Below, one piece after another: positions 30,689 through 35,841 of a DNA stretch of 64,000 nucleotides (positions within the stretch are counted from its first letter, which is position 1; each line of letters starts with the position of its first letter). This stretch comes from Candidatus Peregrinibacteria bacterium CG1_02_54_53 (lineage in GTDB: Bacteria; Patescibacteriota; Gracilibacteria; Peribacterales; Peribacteraceae), in the NCBI GenBank assembly GCA_001872575.1, contig MNWP01000030.1, forward strand, positions 10,780 through 74,779, given 5' to 3'. The notes below the pieces were generated by a model. It was given only the letters and a program-made list of their open reading frames with translations. It was not told the DNA's origin and searched no databases. The position numbers and the translations under genes are program-made.

Positions 30689-31771
30689 ATGAGCGATCAC
30701 CCCACAGACAACGGCTCCGATTCTTTGGGTCCTCTGGATCCGTATTTTGCGTCGCTGGCGAGAGAGTTCAGCACGAGAAAACAAAGGCAAGGCAAATGGT
30801 CGGGGAAGGCATTGTGGCAAGACACGAAGATCGTACGCTTGCTCCCCGGAGACGTGGAAGGCGAGAGTGGCATCGAAGGGGTCTATCAGCGGTCTCTCTT
30901 GCCATCCGAGATGATCACGGCGATTAAAGAAGGGCATCTTCGCGAGTATCAACAGAACCTCAAGGCAAAGGAGGCGCAGCGCGGCGGCATGTTGAACGAT
31001 TTCAACACGCGACCACTGCGTCGACAAAATCCAGGAGAGACAGTTCCATCCATCTGCGAACAAATCAAAAGCGATCTCGAAGCCACACTTCAGATGCAAT
31101 CAGGAGGACCTGCCGAAGAGGGAAATAGAGTCAGATCCATCTATGAAGGCCGGGCATTGATTTCGCGCGAAGGCCCACGAAAGATCCTGGCATGGGGAAC
31201 ATGGAGCAGGTCACAGATCACCGACATCGGTAAACGCACTCCCCAACGTGATCAGCATGTGGCACAATTGTATGCCGTGCTCAAGAGTCTCACCTTTGAC
31301 AGAGGTGTGAGCAGATCTAAGCTGGAAGAGGCGGCAGGCAGCACCATTCTCTTCGACACACTCAATGCCGATCCGGATGCGCCGGGGGCGGCATCGCTCC
31401 TCTTTTGTCATCTTTGCACTCAGTGGCTTCGGGACGAGTACGCACGAATTCTTCTTTGGCGTCACAAGGTATTGCAAATGGTTGACCTGGTTGAGGACGG
31501 TCGCAAAAAGACCTGTACGGTGGACGATGCGGCAGTACCTCAGGGGAATAATGATGCCAGTTATGACTTTTTTCGAAGGCGTGGTTTCAGCGACATCGGA
31601 ACTCGTTACAGTTGTCTGCTTGCCCCTCGTGATTACGTTCAGAATGGAAAATCGTATCCGGGATATGTACTCTCAACTGAGGGATGGATGGCGGCCAATC
31701 TTCATGAAGCTGCATCGCTGAGTTCCGGAATCGATGAACAAACACGCTCGCCGTACGAGGAACAAGCGTGA
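30689..31771 (+). CDS. Hypothetical protein
   Basis: This is a 360-aa ORF. I recognised no motif. Confidence 0.5.
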   Translation: MSDHPTDNGSDSLGPLDPYFASLAREFSTRKQRQGKWSGKALWQDTKIVRLLPGDVEGESGIEGVYQRSLLPSEMITAIKEGHLREYQQNLKAKEAQRGGMLNDFNTRPLRRQNPGETVPSICEQIKSDLEATLQMQSGGPAEEGNRVRSIYEGRALISREGPRKILAWGTWSRSQITDIGKRTPQRDQHVAQLYAVLKSLTFDRGVSRSKLEEAAGSTILFDTLNADPDAPGAASLLFCHLCTQWLRDEYARILLWRHKVLQMVDLVEDGRKKTCTVDDAAVPQGNNDASYDFFRRRGFSDIGTRYSCLLAPRDYVQNGKSYPGYVLSTEGWMAANLHEAASLSSGIDEQTRSPYEEQA

Positions 31772-31791: not shown

Positions 31792-34563
31792 TCAGTGTCG
31801 ACGCCGGTTTATTGTGTTGATGATCAGCGGCAGCGCCGCGCCTGCCGCCACAATGGCACCGGCGAGAAATGTGGCTTGGGTGATTTGATTCATTAATACG
31901 GCTTGCCCGACGATCGTCGTGAATATCAGCAGAAAAGAGAATCGCATCACGAAATCAATTTCTCGATGCGAAAGAAGATAGTAATAAATATAGTAGGGAA
32001 GACCGGCGAAGAACACGCTGAAGAGAATCATGCGCGCCATAACGGGAGCGCCATACTGCAGAAGATGCGCCGAAGGCAGAAGAGGCAGAGCTAAAAGTGC
32101 GCAGAAAAACGAGAGGATGAAAAAATACTGAGCAACGCGCACGTCCACTTGCTCCAGTCTCTTGTAGCGCTCACTGGCGACAGAGAACACGGTAAATGCC
32201 GCAATGGCGATAAAGGTGAAGAGCATGCTTCTGAACGTCCAAGAGGGCGTCGAAATGATCAGCAGAACGATGCCGACAACAAAGCAGGTCCATGCAGCGA
32301 GCATGGTCTTCCAGCGTTTGCGGTTGACGATGGTCGTAAGCAGAAAGCCCGAAACTGTCATGGGAATGGTGTAGTGGGAGGGGAGCGTTTGCTCCAGCGA
32401 AAGATACGTAAACAGCGCCACCAGAAAGAGTGCTCCGACCGAGAGCCAGAGTGTTTTGCTGCGCAGCGGGAGGGCAACAAAGCGCAATGGGGAATGCAGT
32501 CGAATCCAGAGCAACATGACTGCGCTTAAGCCGAGCAGTGAAAAGAAGCGAACGATCGTGAGGTCCAGTGCCGAGATTTGATGTGTTTTGAGAAGCAGAT
32601 GGGCGATGATCGGGTCGAAGCCCCAAAGAGTGAAGATGAGAATCACGGTCAATACCTGTCTGAGCATCGAATGTGTCAGAAGAACACGCACATTGTTTGC
32701 TCCCACTGCTCGCAGTTCGGTCGCAATGGATTGCCGTTCTTCGGAGGTAAGATCGAGCCGCAAAACAATTTTTGTCTGCCGATGTCCGCTCAGCAGAATC
32801 TGCATGTCACCCAGAGAGACATCGTACTTTTCTTCCAAAAACAACATGTGACTGAGCAGCTCGTGTAATGAGGCGCTCGACAGAGTGAAGCGTACGGTGC
32901 AGTATTTCTTTTCGGGCGTGAGATTTTTTCCGGATTTCACCGGCTGAAAGATGGCAGCAATGGCAACCGATGCCTGCAAGTGACCGTCGGCAATCGCAAT
33001 GAACGCTTCATCGAGAGACGTGTATCCGAGTGAGTGAATGCCCTGCATCAAGCTCTCTTCGGTGAATTCCTTCAGATACCCACGCGCTTGTTTGATCATG
33101 GCGTCCTGAAGCACCCTTTTGCCGCTTTCAATTTTCTGCTGGCGCGAAGCGGATCCGAGCAGGGAACGAATGGCGGCGATAGCCACGCCCGTGTGCACCC
33201 ATTCGAGCCAATCACGTGTCACCGTATGGCGGCTGGCAAGCTCAAGCGAGAGGGCATCACCGTCGTTGAGCGGAGTGAAGAAGGGAGCGCCCTTTCCGTT
33301 GATTTTGATGAGCTTTGTTTTGAGCGCTTTCTCTTTGAAGAGATAGAAGGCGCCATCGAGTACCGTCGCTCCGGTAGGAAGCTGGATCGTCGTGTCATCC
33401 GGTCCGTAGATGAAGATCGACTTGCCGAGGATATCGTTCTGCAAGCTGTCCCAGAACTCCTGACTCTTGTCCGCGGTGTCTTTCGAGAGCGGTGCAATGC
33501 GCTCGGTCCAGGGCAGGTAGTTCATGATACCGATAGCCTTGTGATCGAAGCAGAGAGTCGATACGCCCTTTCTGGCGTACTTTTGCATTTCCTTTGTGCG
33601 GATTTTGCAGCGCACACGCGTCCCTTTTTCAAGAATGATCGTCGTATGTAATCCGCGATATCCGTTGATTGCCGGTGCGTTGATGAAATCCTTGAACGAG
33701 AGAATTTCGTGCTGCCATTTCTGATGCAGTATGCCCAACGTTTCGTAGCACTGAGAGATGTCCTTGCAGAGGAAGGCACATGTGATATCCGATCGCACAC
33801 TGTGCGTATCGGTATCAGAGGCGAGACGTGCGCGGAGGTGATCCCATGTTTTCTGTTCAACGCGTACGGTGACCTCTTCAGGCAATGGCTCAGGTTCGCC
33901 GTAAAGCGACTCACGGAGCGCATCTACAAGCTTGGCCGCCTGTCGTTCATTGGCATCGCGAAGTTGTGTAAGTTTTGTGAAAGTTCCAGGATCCAGCACG
34001 GCCAGGCACAACCCTTCAAGTTCATCGCTGAAGTCGTGCATGCTCATTCGTTCCGCAATCTTGACGTAGATATCCATCGTCTCCTGCGCGAATGATTGCT
34101 GCCGTTCCTTTGCGAGGTATTGCACCGTACGCATGTTGTGCAAGCGGTCGGCCAACTTGATCACCATGATGCGAATATCCTCTTGCATCAAAATCACCAT
34201 TTTTCTCAGAGATTCGATCTCTTCGTCGAGCGTGGGGTGCTCGCGCACGGATTGGTCGTCGAGTTTCGTCATCCCCTCGATCAGCGCTGCAACAGTCGGG
34301 CTGAAGCGTTTTTCGATGTAGGCGAGGGTGATGTCGGTATCTTCCAAAACATCGTGGAGCAGTGCGGCAACCAGAGAATCGGCCCCGGCCCCCATGTCGG
34401 CAAGAATGAGGGTAACGGCAATGGGATGGCTGGAATACGGCTCACCTGATTTGCGCTTTTGCCCTTCATGGGCGCTGATGCAGAGCTCGAACGCACGATG
34501 CACGCGCTCACGCTCGGCAGCAGAGAGATGCCGGAGGGAGGATTCAAATTCCTTCCACTGCAT
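31792..34563 (-). CDS. RelA/SpoT homologue (HD hydrolase + degenerate synthetase + TGS + ACT-like) fused to a C-terminal EamA/DMT-like multi-TM domain
   Basis: The HD domain has 'HPIAVTLILADMG...ALLHDVLEDT...LADRLHNMRT'. The RelA_SpoT core has 'CYETLGILHQKWQ...KDFINAPAINGYRGLHTTI...KIRTKEMQ'. The TGS domain has 'IFIYGPDDTTIQLPTGATVLD'. The last ~285 aa (nt ~31795-32660) form about 9-10 hydrophobic helices. Confidence 0.8.
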   Translation of the reverse strand: MQWKEFESSLRHLSAAERERVHRAFELCISAHEGQKRKSGEPYSSHPIAVTLILADMGAGADSLVAALLHDVLEDTDITLAYIEKRFSPTVAALIEGMTKLDDQSVREHPTLDEEIESLRKMVILMQEDIRIMVIKLADRLHNMRTVQYLAKERQQSFAQETMDIYVKIAERMSMHDFSDELEGLCLAVLDPGTFTKLTQLRDANERQAAKLVDALRESLYGEPEPLPEEVTVRVEQKTWDHLRARLASDTDTHSVRSDITCAFLCKDISQCYETLGILHQKWQHEILSFKDFINAPAINGYRGLHTTIILEKGTRVRCKIRTKEMQKYARKGVSTLCFDHKAIGIMNYLPWTERIAPLSKDTADKSQEFWDSLQNDILGKSIFIYGPDDTTIQLPTGATVLDGAFYLFKEKALKTKLIKINGKGAPFFTPLNDGDALSLELASRHTVTRDWLEWVHTGVAIAAIRSLLGSASRQQKIESGKRVLQDAMIKQARGYLKEFTEESLMQGIHSLGYTSLDEAFIAIADGHLQASVAIAAIFQPVKSGKNLTPEKKYCTVRFTLSSASLHELLSHMLFLEEKYDVSLGDMQILLSGHRQTKIVLRLDLTSEERQSIATELRAVGANNVRVLLTHSMLRQVLTVILIFTLWGFDPIIAHLLLKTHQISALDLTIVRFFSLLGLSAVMLLWIRLHSPLRFVALPLRSKTLWLSVGALFLVALFTYLSLEQTLPSHYTIPMTVSGFLLTTIVNRKRWKTMLAAWTCFVVGIVLLIISTPSWTFRSMLFTFIAIAAFTVFSVASERYKRLEQVDVRVAQYFFILSFFCALLALPLLPSAHLLQYGAPVMARMILFSVFFAGLPYYIYYYLLSHREIDFVMRFSFLLIFTTIVGQAVLMNQITQATFLAGAIVAAGAALPLIINTINRRRH

Positions 34564-34733: not shown

Positions 34734-35168
34734 TTACTTTTTCCACTTAATTGAGCACCCAATAGCATTTGCTTCCTCCGTGGGAGGATCGCGATTTTCC
34801 ACCAGCGCATCGATGGCATTCCAGAGATCACGCTGTTTCACCTGATCGGGATGTTCCCAATTGTCGTCCACGCGGCCTTTGTACTTCAACGTGCGGTCAC
34901 GACCGAAAACGAAACAGTGTGGTGTGCAGAGCGCCCCGAAAGCCCTGGCGACTTGCTGCGAGGCATCGTGACAGTAGGGGCAGGGGTATCCGCGCTCCTC
35001 GTAACGTTCCTTCATGGCGGCGAAGGAATCCTGCGGATAGTCGGTGGCATCATTGCTGTTAATCAGAATCACCTGCACGCCTTCCTGATCGAAATGTTCT
35101 GCAATTTCCAGAATTCGCTCTTCATAAGCCTGTGCGTACGGGCAGTGATTGCAGGTGAAGATCACCAC
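34734..35168 (-). CDS. Thioredoxin-fold protein (CNHCPY redox motif); apparent N-terminal frameshift
   Basis: 'VVIFTCNHCPYAQAYEERI' is present. A 27-codon ORF (35287-35204, MVLINDNSSVLNIGDPLPHFRLPAVVA*) encodes the expected N-terminal beta-strand region in another frame. Confidence 0.7.
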   Translation of the reverse strand: MVIFTCNHCPYAQAYEERILEIAEHFDQEGVQVILINSNDATDYPQDSFAAMKERYEERGYPCPYCHDASQQVARAFGALCTPHCFVFGRDRTLKYKGRVDDNWEHPDQVKQRDLWNAIDALVENRDPPTEEANAIGCSIKWKK

Positions 35169-35325: not shown

Positions 35326-35841
35326 ATGCAACGACATTCCACCGCTACCGCGTTCGTTGTTGATTCGCAGAATCGCACGCTCCTGCTCTGGCACAAGAGG
35401 ATGCAGCGCTGGATGCCGCCGGGAGGCCATGTTGATCCGAATGAATCTCCCGAGGAGACGGCGCAACGCGAGTGCAAAGAGGAAACGGGGCTCGACGTCG
35501 AGATCATCGGCGATGGTTCAACTCCGCTCACCACAGGAGAGCAGACCGATATTTTTGCAGGAAATCGCGAAGAGGGGAGAATCCTCAAGAGGCCCATTGC
35601 ATTCCTGCTCGAAAATATTCCCGAGTCGCCCGAGCGCAACGAGCCTGCGCACCAGCATATGGATTGCGTCTATCTCGCCTGCCCGCTCGATGAAGCGCAG
35701 GCGCTGTGCCTCGCGCAGAATGAAGGTGACGAGCTCCACTGGTTTACCGTTGATGAGATCGCCGCTCTCGACGAGAAAACCGAAATCTTTGCCAACGTGA
35801 AACACTATATTCTTGCAGTGCTCACGCCCGTTGCTTCTTGA
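35326..35841 (+). CDS. NUDIX hydrolase
   Basis: The Nudix box is 'GGHVDPNESPEETAQRECKEETGL'. Confidence 0.85.
   Translation: MQRHSTATAFVVDSQNRTLLLWHKRMQRWMPPGGHVDPNESPEETAQRECKEETGLDVEIIGDGSTPLTTGEQTDIFAGNREEGRILKRPIAFLLENIPESPERNEPAHQHMDCVYLACPLDEAQALCLAQNEGDELHWFTVDEIAALDEKTEIFANVKHYILAVLTPVAS

What the first reader, a model, noticed from the sequence alone, without database searches (positions are those of the whole stretch)
31792..34563. RelA/SpoT homologue fused to an EamA/DMT-like polytopic membrane domain, with a probably inactive synthetase core
The first ~630 aa have the long-RSH order HD-synthetase-TGS-ACT-like. The last ~285 aa (nt ~31795-32660) form about 9-10 hydrophobic helices resembling a drug/metabolite-transporter (EamA) module. 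Long RSH enzymes are normally soluble and ribosome-associated.

The hydrolase motifs are intact: HP...HDVLED and DRLHNMRT.

The synthetase region keeps the scaffold 'CY..LG..H..W....KDFI..P..NGY..LHT' but has diverged elsewhere. As I recall the motifs, the usual 'GR.K..YSI..K' is 'VEQKTWDHLRARL', 'DL.A.R' is 'DITCAFL', and 'EVQIRT' is 'RCKIRT'. That suggests loss of (p)ppGpp synthesis.

My inference is a membrane-anchored, hydrolase-only SpoT-like enzyme that may couple alarmone turnover to a transported metabolite.
Basis: partly seen in the sequence, partly recalled or inferred. Interest (0 to 1): 0.6.

Follow-up and report, generated by a model that had tools for sequence, protein, structure and literature searches.

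The report
Alarmone hydrolase fused to DMT transporter
An uncultured Peribacteria (candidate phyla radiation) bacterium encodes a RelA/SpoT-type enzyme that by sequence can only destroy the starvation signal (p)ppGpp, built as one protein with a ten-helix transporter-type membrane domain; I found no paper describing this lineage-wide design, which could put control of the stringent response at the membrane and not on the ribosome.

Summary
Window 31792-34563 (-) is one uninterrupted 923-aa ORF. Its order is HD hydrolase, degenerate synthetase, Core, TGS, helical domain, ACT/RRM-like module, then a 10-helix membrane domain that starts 3 residues later.

- **Hydrolase:** all nine catalytic positions scored are invariant in 52-54 of 54 relatives.
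- **Synthetase:** it has lost both acidic Mg ligands (D264, E324) and most ATP/GTP-binding basic residues. The replacements are themselves conserved (E241, 'RCKIRT').
- **Membrane domain:** the AlphaFold model is confident (pLDDT 89.5). Its top 29 PDB hits are all DMT transporters (TM-score 0.55-0.72). The window's copy misses Pfam EamA, but 13 of 24 orthologues hit it.
- **Distribution:** the fusion is intact in 23 independent species-representative assemblies. In the genomes searched it is confined to the window's own GTDB family (the named relatives are Peribacteria/Peribacteraceae).
- **Paralogues:** the same 1.37-Mb genome holds two long RSH paralogues with intact synthetase sites and degenerate hydrolase sites, so the two functions are split between genes.

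The hydrolase-only, membrane-embedded reading is well supported by sequence. Coupling to a transported ligand remains an inference. The closest known enzyme is the soluble SpoT[Hs] of Acinetobacter. I found no published description, but this scan has noted the same architecture on other Peribacteria DNA.

The parts
31792..34563 (-). Whole gene: 923-aa RSH-DMT fusion protein (stop codon included)
   Evidence: Single ORF. The same uninterrupted ORF occurs in 23 species-representative genomes.
33994..34557 (-). HD (p)ppGpp-hydrolase domain, aa 3-190, catalytic residues intact
   Evidence: Pfam HD_4 E 1.5e-40. Nine of nine catalytic positions are invariant in 52-54 of 54 relatives. The N-terminal half superposes on RelSeq/Rel NTD structures at TM-score 0.83-0.87.
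33556..33990 (-). Connecting helix plus pseudo-synthetase domain, aa 192-336; catalytic Mg ligands and ATP/GTP-binding residues replaced, conserved 'RCKIRT' signature
   Evidence: Partial RelA_SpoT match, profile 31-103 of 113, 52.7 bits, against 118-127 bits for the paralogues. Model segment 288-302 has pLDDT below 50.
33427..33528 (-). Helix-turn-helix 'Core'-like element, aa 346-379
   Evidence: Helices 346-349, 351-362 and 367-379 in the model. Segment 346-382 is the joint most conserved part (majority fraction 0.74). It occupies the position of the SpoT(Ab) Core, residues 334-379 (PMC9974481).
33238..33420 (-). TGS-like beta-grasp domain, aa 382-442 (divergent)
   Evidence: Pfam TGS 18.2 bits, below the 22.2 cut-off. 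Strand/helix pattern in the model.
32950..33210 (-). Alpha-helical (AH/HEL) domain, aa 452-538
   Evidence: Pfam RelA_AH_RIS profile positions 4-107 of 185 only. All-helical in the model.
32908..32943 (-). Short variable, disordered linker, aa 541-552, where canonical long RSHs carry the RIS/zinc-finger domain
   Evidence: pLDDT below 50 for 541-549. No invariant columns and majority fraction 0.28. The RIS half of the Pfam profile is not matched.
32677..32907 (-). ACT/RRM-like beta-alpha-beta-beta-alpha-beta module, aa 553-629, ending 3 residues before TM1
   Evidence: DSSP elements E553-562, H566-580, E587-592, E596-605, H607-619 and E623-629. No Pfam hit. Poorly conserved in sequence (0.36).
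31798..32667 (-). 10-helix DMT-fold (divergent EamA-type) membrane domain, aa 633-922, N-in/C-in
   Evidence: AlphaFold pLDDT 89.5, pTM 0.87, ten helices in a 5+5 layout. Top 29 PDB hits are all DMT transporters. Thirteen of 24 orthologues hit Pfam EamA. K+R count is 17 inside against 2 outside. There are 39 invariant residues.
31743..31770 (-). Terminator-like hairpin just after the stop codon
   Evidence: 10-pair stem with a T-rich tail. This is a consensus match only.

Best explanation
The gene encodes a membrane-embedded, monofunctional (p)ppGpp hydrolase. The cytoplasmic N-terminal 630 aa are a long RSH. Its Mn-dependent HD site is intact, and its synthetase domain has become a non-catalytic, probably regulatory, pseudo-SYNTH domain, as in SpoT[Hs] of Acinetobacter. 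Alarmone synthesis in this organism is left to two separate long-RSH paralogues that keep the synthetase site and have degenerate HD sites. The canonical zinc-finger/RIS domain is missing. The C-terminal ACT/RRM-like module runs, with only three intervening residues, into TM1 of a complete 10-helix DMT (divergent EamA-type) domain. Inferred mechanism: the DMT domain is the sensory input. Its ligand occupancy or transport-cycle conformation is relayed through the rigidly attached ACT/RRM module to the pseudo-SYNTH/Core/TGS scaffold that positions the HD active site, so (p)ppGpp breakdown is switched by a membrane or nutrient cue and not by the ribosome. What is shown: the architecture, residue conservation, fold, topology, phyletic pattern and paralogue complement. 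What is inferred: hydrolase activity, loss of synthesis, and above all the direction and existence of DMT-to-HD coupling and the identity of the ligand. Because Peribacteria depend on external amino acids, an amino acid or related metabolite is my leading guess for the ligand.
For: One ORF, conserved as a fusion in at least 54 relatives and 23 species-representative genomes. HD residues are invariant, and synthetase residues R241, K251, D264, R269, R295, E324 and Q326 are replaced across the family with conserved substitutes. In the own genome, paralogue C28 (632 aa; SYNTH 123.5 bits, TGS 73 bits; HD motif LLHHALDG) and paralogue C27 (476 aa; SYNTH 114 bits; HD motifs HDAFLD and HRLND) keep all synthetase residues. 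Every one of 41 family genomes sampled has a full-scoring SYNTH domain elsewhere. The TM domain has a confident DMT fold and its orthologues hit EamA. It carries 39 invariant residues, including D650 in the middle of TM1 and R672 in TM2, plus conserved cytoplasmic-face motifs SERYKR and PYYIYYYLLS. Its conservation (0.63) is close to that of the pseudo-SYNTH (0.68) and above that of TGS (0.61). Of 1.84 billion representative proteins, the TM domain matches only 109, and nearly all of those are the same fusion, so it has evolved only as part of this enzyme. The RRM-like strand ends at aa 629 and TM1 starts at aa 633. The positive-inside rule places the RSH module in the cytoplasm. The best whole-chain PDB match is SpoT[Hs], 7qpr. 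In that enzyme the C-terminal domains activate HD allosterically through the Core, and the pseudo-SYNTH is regulatory (PMC9974481). A sister clade of RSH hydrolases in the same bacterial family is fused to a different, larger EamA-containing membrane domain. That argues for a functional link between this RSH type and DMT modules.
Against: No biochemical or expression data exist for any member. The window's own TM domain does not reach Pfam EamA. The full-length model has pTM 0.53, and its domain arrangement does not match the SpoT tau-state (TM-score 0.40, rmsd 24 A), so no interface between the soluble part and the DMT domain is established. The ACT/RRM-like module that would carry the signal is the least conserved folded part (0.36, no invariant columns), which is odd for an allosteric relay. 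Soluble pseudo-SYNTH RSHs ending in ACT exist in some related genomes, so the hydrolase can work without a membrane domain. The genome has at least two further proteins with intact HD_4 motifs, so this is not the only possible alarmone hydrolase.
Confidence: 0.5

Rival explanations
1. The DMT-fold domain is only a membrane anchor. The enzyme is a constitutive or otherwise regulated (p)ppGpp hydrolase held at the membrane, and the former transporter has no ligand-dependent role.
For: The ACT/RRM-like module and the linker next to the membrane domain are poorly conserved. The inter-domain arrangement is not confidently predicted (pTM 0.53). Soluble homologues exist in related genomes.
Against: An anchor needs one or two helices and tolerates drift. 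Here a complete 5+5 DMT fold is kept at pLDDT 89.5, with 39 invariant residues that include intramembrane D650 and R672. The domain stays recognisable down to about 20-25% identity, always in the same fusion. A sister clade keeps a different EamA-containing domain.
Confidence: 0.2
2. Coupling runs the other way. The DMT domain is a working transporter, and the RSH part is its alarmone sensor and timer. (p)ppGpp binding at the HD or pseudo-SYNTH site gates import or export, and hydrolysis resets the gate.
For: The pseudo-SYNTH domain is conserved in its own right (E241, W245 and RCKIRT nearly invariant), as expected if it still binds a nucleotide. The DMT cavity residues are conserved. Cytoplasmic regulatory domains fused to transporters are common (general knowledge).
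Against: All HD catalytic residues are strictly kept, which a pure sensor would not need. There is no precedent for an RSH domain gating a transporter in the literature searched.
Confidence: 0.15
3. Substrate channelling: the DMT domain moves a nucleotide (alarmone, or GDP/GTP/PPi product) across the membrane, and the HD domain acts on it at the pore, for example to scavenge or dispose of alarmones.
For: The best structural matches by TM-score are nucleotide-handling DMTs: SLC35B1 ATP/ADP exchanger at 0.70-0.72, nucleotide-sugar transporters, and the triose-phosphate/phosphate translocator. Invariant Arg/Lys residues line the cytoplasmic ends of TM6 and TM7.
Against: Fold similarity within DMT does not predict the substrate, and sequence identity to these proteins is only 10-18%. 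Peribacter is reported to synthesise nucleotides de novo (PMC4736985). Nothing suggests extracellular alarmones in this niche.
Confidence: 0.07
4. The synthetase domain is still catalytic, for (p)ppGpp or another product, using an unconventional set of residues, so the protein is bifunctional.
For: Some substrate-binding scaffold residues remain (K243 in 38 of 54, D298, Y308, H312, R328), and the domain is under purifying selection.
Against: Both acidic metal ligands are gone, with a charge reversal at E324->R. R241, K251, R269, R295 and Q326 are also replaced. The Pfam profile matches only positions 31-103. Comparable losses in SpoT(Ab) were shown experimentally to abolish synthesis (PMC9974481).
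Confidence: 0.04
5. Artefact: a frameshift, mis-assembly or read-through joins a separate RSH gene and a transporter gene.
For: None was found.
Against: The same uninterrupted ORF appears in 23 independently assembled genomes and in more than 100 database representatives, with the junction at the same place.
Confidence: 0.01

Closest known systems
SpoT[Hs], the monofunctional long-RSH hydrolase of Moraxellaceae (Acinetobacter baumannii SpoT, PDB 7QPR; Tamman et al. 2022, PMC9974481)
   Same: It is a long RSH with an intact HD site and a retained but non-catalytic pseudo-SYNTH domain, and it is partnered in the genome by a synthetase-only long RSH. It is the best whole-chain PDB match to my model (E 1e-27) and a clear sequence match (E 3.9e-51). 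The Core-like helix-turn-helix between SYNTH and TGS is highly conserved.
   Different: SpoT[Hs] is soluble and keeps ZFD and RRM as its C-terminus. Here the ZFD is absent and the RRM/ACT-like module continues into a 10-TM DMT domain. The origin is independent (CPR against Gammaproteobacteria), and a different set of SYNTH substitutions is used (E241, RCKIRT). Hydrolase-only status is experimental for SpoT(Ab) and only inferred here.
Canonical bifunctional Rel (B. subtilis 6YXA, S. equisimilis RelSeq 1VJ7, T. thermophilus 6S2T)
   Same: Same domain order HD-SYNTH-TGS-helical. The N-terminal half superposes at TM-score 0.83-0.87. All HD catalytic residues are identical.
   Different: Rel is soluble, ribosome-associated and synthetase-competent. 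The fusion lacks the Mg ligands and ATP-binding residues and the ZFD, and it is an integral membrane protein.
DMT-superfamily transporters (EamA family PF00892; YddG 5I20; triose-phosphate translocator 5Y78; SLC35B1 9I20; LicB 7PAF)
   Same: Ten helices in a 5+5 layout and full-length structural alignment at TM-score 0.55-0.72. It has the N-in/C-in topology usual for 10-TM DMT proteins (for this protein; the comparison is general knowledge). Orthologues reach the EamA profile.
   Different: The window's copy is below detection for EamA. The domain family is private to this fusion: only 109 hits among 1.84 billion representatives and no ordinary EamA protein. No known DMT carries an N-terminal RSH enzyme.
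The ~1100-aa RSH fused to a ~13-14-TM domain in the same bacterial family (loci L036-L041)
   Same: Intact HD and degenerate SYNTH, with the membrane domain starting at about aa 632. Its RSH part groups with the 10-TM clade against the soluble and canonical RSHs (split support 100/97). It coexists with the 10-TM form in one genome (G429; L038 and L045).
   Different: The membrane domain is larger, has a weak direct EamA hit (23.6 bits) and shows no detectable sequence similarity to the 10-TM domain (hhalign probability 0.3). E324 is retained in several members.

Membership tests
Long RelA/SpoT homologue (RSH) superfamily | N-terminal HD (HD_4) domain | tested here: met
   PF13328 E 1.5e-40, 138.9 bits against a cut-off of 27.2.
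Long RelA/SpoT homologue (RSH) superfamily | RelA_SpoT (SYNTH) domain after HD | tested here: met
   PF04607 52.7 bits against a cut-off of 27, but only profile positions 31-103 of 113. The fold is present in the model.
Long RelA/SpoT homologue (RSH) superfamily | TGS domain | tested here: inconclusive
   PF02824 18.2 bits, below the 22.2 cut-off. A beta-grasp-like strand/helix pattern is present at aa 382-442 in the model.
Long RelA/SpoT homologue (RSH) superfamily | Zinc-finger/RIS domain between the helical domain and ACT/RRM | tested here: not met
   The RelA_AH_RIS profile is matched only at positions 4-107 of 185. Only a 12-residue disordered linker lies between the helical domain and the ACT-like module, with no invariant Cys or His there.
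Long RelA/SpoT homologue (RSH) superfamily | C-terminal ACT/RRM domain | tested here: inconclusive
   No Pfam ACT hit. The model shows a beta-alpha-beta-beta-alpha-beta unit at 553-629 with pLDDT about 67-78.
Long RelA/SpoT homologue (RSH) superfamily | NCBIfam TIGR00691 (spoT_relA) trusted cut-off | tested here: not met
   372.2 bits against a cut-off of 499.2. This is a divergent member.
Monofunctional hydrolase-only long RSH (functional class of SpoT[Hs]) | HD catalytic and metal-binding residues intact | tested here: met
   R44, H53, H77, D78, E81, D82, D144, H147 and N148 are all present and invariant in 52-54 of 54.
Monofunctional hydrolase-only long RSH (functional class of SpoT[Hs]) | SYNTH catalytic residues lost | tested here: met
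   R241E, K251R/Q, D264S, R269A, R295S, E324R and Q326K.
Monofunctional hydrolase-only long RSH (functional class of SpoT[Hs]) | A separate synthetase-competent RSH in the same genome | tested here: met
   Two paralogues with full SYNTH scores and all catalytic residues. The same holds in all 41 family genomes sampled.
Monofunctional hydrolase-only long RSH (functional class of SpoT[Hs]) | Demonstrated (p)ppGpp hydrolysis and absence of synthesis | not testable with these tools
   This needs complementation in E. coli relA spoT and an in vitro assay.
Monofunctional hydrolase-only long RSH (functional class of SpoT[Hs]) | Descent from the Moraxellaceae SpoT lineage | not tested
   The organism is a CPR bacterium, so an independent origin is expected. 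No tree including proteobacterial SpoT was built.
DMT superfamily / EamA-like transporter | Ten TM helices as two 5-TM halves | tested here: met
   AlphaFold helices 9-36, 41-66, 79-101, 104-122 and 127-147, then 153-180, 186-207, 215-239, 242-267 and 272-298. Hydropathy agrees.
DMT superfamily / EamA-like transporter | Fold match to solved DMT structures | tested here: met
   The top 29 Foldseek hits are all DMT, with E down to 1e-5 and TM-score 0.55-0.72. The next hits have TM-score about 0.16.
DMT superfamily / EamA-like transporter | Match to the Pfam EamA profile (PF00892) | tested here: inconclusive
   The window's copy gives no hit even at E<=10. Thirteen of 24 orthologous domains hit at E<=1, with a best E of 1.8e-9. 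One of 55 relatives has a precomputed EamA hit.
DMT superfamily / EamA-like transporter | Transport activity and substrate | not testable with these tools
   This needs a reconstitution assay.

The most novel reading that the evidence does not exclude
The protein is a nutrient 'transceptor' for the stringent response. In amino-acid-dependent Peribacteria, occupancy or cycling of the DMT domain by an imported or exported metabolite (for example an amino acid) directly switches on (p)ppGpp hydrolysis. Recovery from the stringent state is then decided at the membrane by nutrient availability and is independent of the ribosome. The sister ~14-TM fusion would be a second such input for another ligand.
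Probability: 0.3. Interest if true: 0.8.

Novelty: new variant of a known kind. Interest (0 to 1): 0.62.

Why it matters
Long RSH enzymes are textbook soluble proteins that read starvation from the ribosome (RelA, Rel) or from soluble partner proteins (SpoT). A long RSH that is an integral membrane protein, with a complete transporter-type domain in place of its ribosome-docking zinc finger, would be a different way of feeding information into (p)ppGpp signalling. It occurs in candidate-phyla-radiation bacteria, whose physiology is almost unknown and which depend on external nutrients. The family also offers a natural second example of a pseudo-SYNTH domain, which allows a test of the SpoT[Hs] 'conformational constraint' model. 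It is also a small, tractable system for asking how a DMT transporter can talk to a cytoplasmic enzyme. If the membrane domain turns out to be a mere anchor, the finding is a curiosity of domain architecture.

Tried and rejected
**Steps that failed or gave nothing**
- Pfam EamA on the full protein and on the C-terminus alone gave no hit. I therefore turned to structure prediction and to scanning the orthologues.
- The search for related loci with the 14-sequence TM alignment A1 failed because no stretch was conserved enough. I repeated it with the closer 5-sequence alignment A2.
- The listing of cluster members gave almost no taxonomy for ten distant members.
- hhalign of the 10-TM profile against the membrane domain of the ~1100-aa variant found no relationship (probability 0.3). 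Whether the two membrane domains share an origin is therefore open.
- Model coordinates are not exposed. I could not test whether E241 and R324, an apparent charge swap, touch each other. I also could not test which soluble surface faces the conserved cytoplasmic motifs of the DMT domain.
- The full-length model has pTM 0.53 and a poor global fit to 7qpr, so I draw no conclusion about a tau-like state.
- The promoter scan found no sigma-70-like site upstream on the gene's strand, which is uninformative for a CPR organism.
- Literature searches found no description of a membrane-embedded long RSH. The library lacks most subscription journals.

**Readings considered and rejected**
- A frameshift artefact is rejected on conservation.
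- An active synthetase is rejected because both metal ligands are lost.
- Recent capture of an ordinary EamA gene is rejected because the TM domain family is private to the fusion.


Full report
**1. Observation**

The window holds one ORF at 31792..34563 on the minus strand, 923 aa. Pfam finds the following:
- HD_4, aa 24-173, E 1.5e-40.
- A partial RelA_SpoT domain, aa 264-335, covering only profile positions 31-103 of 113, at 52.7 bits.
- A sub-threshold TGS, 18.2 bits against a cut-off of 22.2.
- The helical half of RelA_AH_RIS, profile positions 4-107 of 185.

NCBIfam TIGR00691 scores 372 bits, below its cut-off of 499. The protein is therefore a divergent long RSH. Hydropathy shows about ten hydrophobic segments between aa 636 and 915. 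Pfam EamA gives nothing for this copy, even at E<=10 on the C-terminus alone.

**2. The fusion is real and conserved**

A search restricted to aa 600-923 returned 54 other proteins of about 870-965 aa (two shorter ones are partial) with the same RSH N-terminus. They are 81% to 36% identical over the membrane part. The named ones come from Candidatus Peregrinibacteria/Peribacteraceae.

An exhaustive HMMER scan of 1.84 billion representatives with the TM domain alone found only 109 proteins at E<=1e-3. Nearly all are 900-965 aa with the match at about 625-915. Most of the short hits start in mid-RSH and so are fragments. No ordinary EamA protein was hit, so this membrane-domain family exists essentially only as part of this enzyme.

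In the species-representative genome collection, 23 loci were recovered, all from Peribacteria/Peregrinibacteria. Each has a single uninterrupted ORF of 911-964 aa with HD..ED and RCKIRT (RCKMRT in one); DR.HN is in 22 of the 23.

In 400 sampled genomes of the phylum, the TM domain was found in 9 of 11 other genomes of the window's own family. It was found in none of 389 genomes of other families, 13 of them in the same class.

**3. Catalytic sites**

I aligned 54 family members with B. subtilis Rel (letters taken from the 6yxa alignment) and the two long-RSH paralogues of the same genome.

| Site (B. subtilis Rel numbering) | State in the fusion family |
|---|---|
| HD: R44, H53, H77, D78, E81, D82, D144, R145, H147, N148, T151 | Invariant in 52-54 of 54 |
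| SYNTH R241 | E in 50/54 |
| SYNTH K251 | Q in 39, R in 12 |
| SYNTH D264 | S/A/P/T; an Asp one position later in only 18/54 |
| SYNTH R269 | A or V |
| SYNTH R295 | S or T |
| SYNTH K297 | Q in 32, E in 10, K in 9 |
| SYNTH E324 | R in 52/54 |
| SYNTH V325 | C in 54/54 |
| SYNTH Q326 | K in 53/54 |
| SYNTH F296, D298, N306, G307, Y308, H312, T313, R328, T329 | Retained |

Both acidic metal ligands and most phosphate-binding basic residues are gone, yet the substitutes are nearly invariant. That is the signature of a pseudo-enzyme domain under its own selection. The signature persists in members with only 24-30% identity in the TM domain.

**4. Division of labour in the genome**

The window lies in a 1.37-Mb, 96%-complete genome. 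It has two further SYNTH-bearing genes:
- C28, 632 aa: SYNTH 123.5 bits, TGS 73 bits, and every synthetase residue intact. Its HD motifs read LLHHALDG and DRTAILR.
- C27, 476 aa: SYNTH 114 bits and intact synthetase residues. Its HD motifs read HDAFLD and HRLND.

Two more proteins carry HD_4 domains with intact motifs: a 222-aa protein that looks like a small alarmone hydrolase, and a 494-aa protein.

In all 41 family genomes sampled (one per genus), a full-scoring SYNTH domain (>108 bits) sits in a 470-760-aa frame. Weak, partial SYNTH hits (34-71 bits) sit in frames of ~920-970, ~1085-1109 or ~640-720 aa. So the hydrolase-only reading fits a RelA/SpoT-like split of functions between paralogues.

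**5. The membrane domain**

An AlphaFold model of aa 625-923, built on 24 orthologues, is confident (pLDDT 89.5, pTM 0.87) and has ten helices in a 5+5 layout. In Foldseek against the PDB, the top 29 hits are all DMT-superfamily transporters, aligned over the full length:
- triose-phosphate/phosphate translocator 5y78, E 1e-5
- SLC35B1, TM-score 0.70-0.72
- YddG 5i20
- LicB 7paf
- Vrg4
- CMP-sialic acid transporter

The next hits fall to a TM-score of about 0.16. At sequence level, 13 of 24 orthologous domains reach Pfam EamA (best E 1.8e-9), although the window's copy does not. The domain is therefore a divergent EamA-type DMT module.

K+R counts are 17 inside against 2 outside, and 10-20 against 0-3 in all 24 species. 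This fits an N-in/C-in topology with the RSH part in the cytoplasm.

The domain has 39 invariant residues among the 24 species. They include:
- W647, D650 and P651 in the middle of TM1, and R672 in TM2.
- A cytoplasmic-face cluster: S797, E798, Y800 and K801 (within the SERYKR motif), R809, Q812 and Y813, the PYY.YY motif at the end of TM8, and D870.

Its mean conservation (0.63) is close to the pseudo-SYNTH (0.68) and above TGS (0.61).

**6. Whole-chain parse**

The full-length model (pLDDT 82, pTM 0.53) gives this parse:

| Module | Residues |
|---|---|
| HD | 3-190 |
| Connecting helix | 192-221 |
| Pseudo-SYNTH | 232-336 (288-302 at pLDDT below 50) |
| Helix-turn-helix at the position of the SpoT 'Core' | 346-379 |
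| TGS-like beta-grasp | 382-442 |
| Helical domain | 452-538 |
| Disordered linker | 541-549 |
| Beta-alpha-beta-beta-alpha-beta ACT/RRM-type unit | 553-629 |
| TM1 | from 633 |

There is no space and no conserved Cys/His for a zinc-finger domain. Foldseek of the whole chain ranks A. baumannii SpoT (7qpr) first, with E 1e-27 over about 710 columns. The rigid-body fit is poor (TM-score 0.40), so the inter-domain arrangement of my model is not informative. The N-terminal half fits RelSeq/Rel NTD structures at TM-score 0.83-0.87.

**7. Relatives with other architectures**

In the same bacterial family, RSHs with intact HD and degenerate SYNTH also occur in two other forms:
- Soluble 644-706-aa proteins. 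One that was scanned ends in a Pfam ACT_4 domain.
- Proteins of ~1084-1106 aa with 12-13 hydrophobic segments. One carries a weak EamA hit (23.6 bits, below cut-off) and has no detectable similarity to the 10-TM domain.

All of them have nine of nine HD residues.

I built an IQ-TREE tree on the RSH part only (52 rows). Rows were limited to 10 distant representatives, the 24 species-level 10-TM sequences, one further 10-TM locus, six ~14-TM loci, eight soluble loci, two paralogues and B. subtilis Rel. The tree gives:
- the 10-TM fusions as one clade (100/100);
- the ~14-TM fusions as another clade (100/100);
- the split {both fused clades} | {soluble forms + references} at 100/97.

The tree is unrooted. 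If the root lies among the canonical or soluble forms, the two membrane-fused groups are sisters, which would fit one ancient fusion followed by divergence or exchange of the membrane part. Genome G429 holds both forms (L038, L045), so they are paralogues.

**8. Context**

Gene order is conserved across Peribacteria: UvrA, then a NUDIX gene and a Redoxin/AhpC-like gene, then RSH-DMT, then a convergent ~360-aa gene with no Pfam hit, then a further gene with no Pfam hit (221 aa in the window), then an M20 peptidase. In the window the redoxin-like gene lies directly upstream on the same strand. A terminator-like hairpin follows the stop codon. I see no functional clue in these neighbours beyond lineage synteny.

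**9. Mechanism**

What is shown is the architecture, the residues, the fold, the topology, the phyletic pattern and the paralogue set. What follows from established knowledge is as follows:
- HD residues of this kind catalyse Mn-dependent (p)ppGpp hydrolysis.
- Loss of D264 and E324 abolishes synthesis.
- In SpoT[Hs] the pseudo-SYNTH is regulatory, and the C-terminal domains activate HD through the Core, with RRM and ZFD fine-tuning activity (PMC9974481).

My inference is that the DMT domain replaces the ribosome/ZFD input and signals through the directly attached ACT/RRM-like unit to this scaffold. Peribacter is reported to make nucleotides but to rely on externally derived amino acids (PMC4736985). 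That makes an amino-acid-type ligand an attractive but untested candidate.

The weak points are three: the poor conservation of the ACT/RRM-like unit, the lack of any predicted interface, and the existence of soluble homologues.

**10. Novelty**

Three key papers do not mention a membrane-embedded long RSH: the RSH censuses of Atkinson 2011 (PMC3153485) and Jimmy 2020 (PMC7229694), and the SpoT structure paper. Full-text searches found none either. Public records call these proteins 'HD domain-containing protein'. One JGI record names the combination '(p)ppGpp synthase/HD superfamily hydrolase/DMT-like permease'.

Earlier agents of this scan noted the same architecture in other Peribacteria genomes. 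Their reading agrees with mine, and they pointed me to PMC9974481, which I then read. I file the gene as a new variant of a known kind: a SpoT[Hs]-like hydrolase-only long RSH, newly combined with a DMT domain.

Noticed in passing
own genome G000: C28 (L001:778-2676), C27 (L002:811-2241), C11 (L006:814-2298), C1 (L007:1405-2073): A 1.37-Mb CPR genome carries five RSH-related genes: two synthetase-only long RSHs with degenerate HD sites, the RSH-DMT fusion, a 222-aa protein resembling a small alarmone hydrolase, and a 494-aa protein with a C-terminal HD_4 domain and an unknown N-terminal half. That is a rich alarmone toolkit for so small a genome.
   Followed up: partly
L036-L041 (G392, G406, G429, G407, G402, G405): This is a second membrane-fused RSH subfamily, about 1084-1106 aa with 12-13 hydrophobic segments. 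It has a weak EamA hit and no sequence similarity to the 10-TM domain. Several members keep E324. It coexists with the 10-TM form in G429.
   Followed up: partly
L033, L034, L035, L042, L043, L046, L047, L048: These are soluble 644-706-aa long RSHs of the same bacterial family, with intact HD and degenerate SYNTH ('RLRIQT', 'KIIIQT'). L033, the one checked, ends in an ACT domain. They fall in two clades, and some genomes that have them (for example G229) showed no 10-TM domain match.
   Followed up: partly
window 33595-33597 and 33844-33846 (aa 323 and 240 of the protein, Bsu positions 324 and 241): The family-wide pair R241->E and E324->R looks like a charge swap inside the former active site. 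It could be a salt bridge that fills the dead site. I could not check this because model coordinates are not exposed.
   Followed up: no
window 30689-31771 (+): A convergent 360-aa ORF directly downstream has no Pfam hit. It is conserved in position in nearly all Peribacteria loci (clusters c6, c7 and c8).
   Followed up: partly
window 34734-35168 (-) and 35326-35841 (+): A truncated-looking Redoxin/AhpC-like gene (144 aa, matching profile positions 30-123 only) lies directly upstream on the same strand. A NUDIX hydrolase gene lies beyond it. Both are syntenic with the fusion across the lineage. NUDIX enzymes can also act on nucleotide polyphosphates, but no link was tested.
   Followed up: no
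window 32000-32499: There is a strong AT skew (+0.35) on the plus strand over the membrane-domain coding region. It probably reflects T-rich hydrophobic codons on the minus strand.
   Followed up: no
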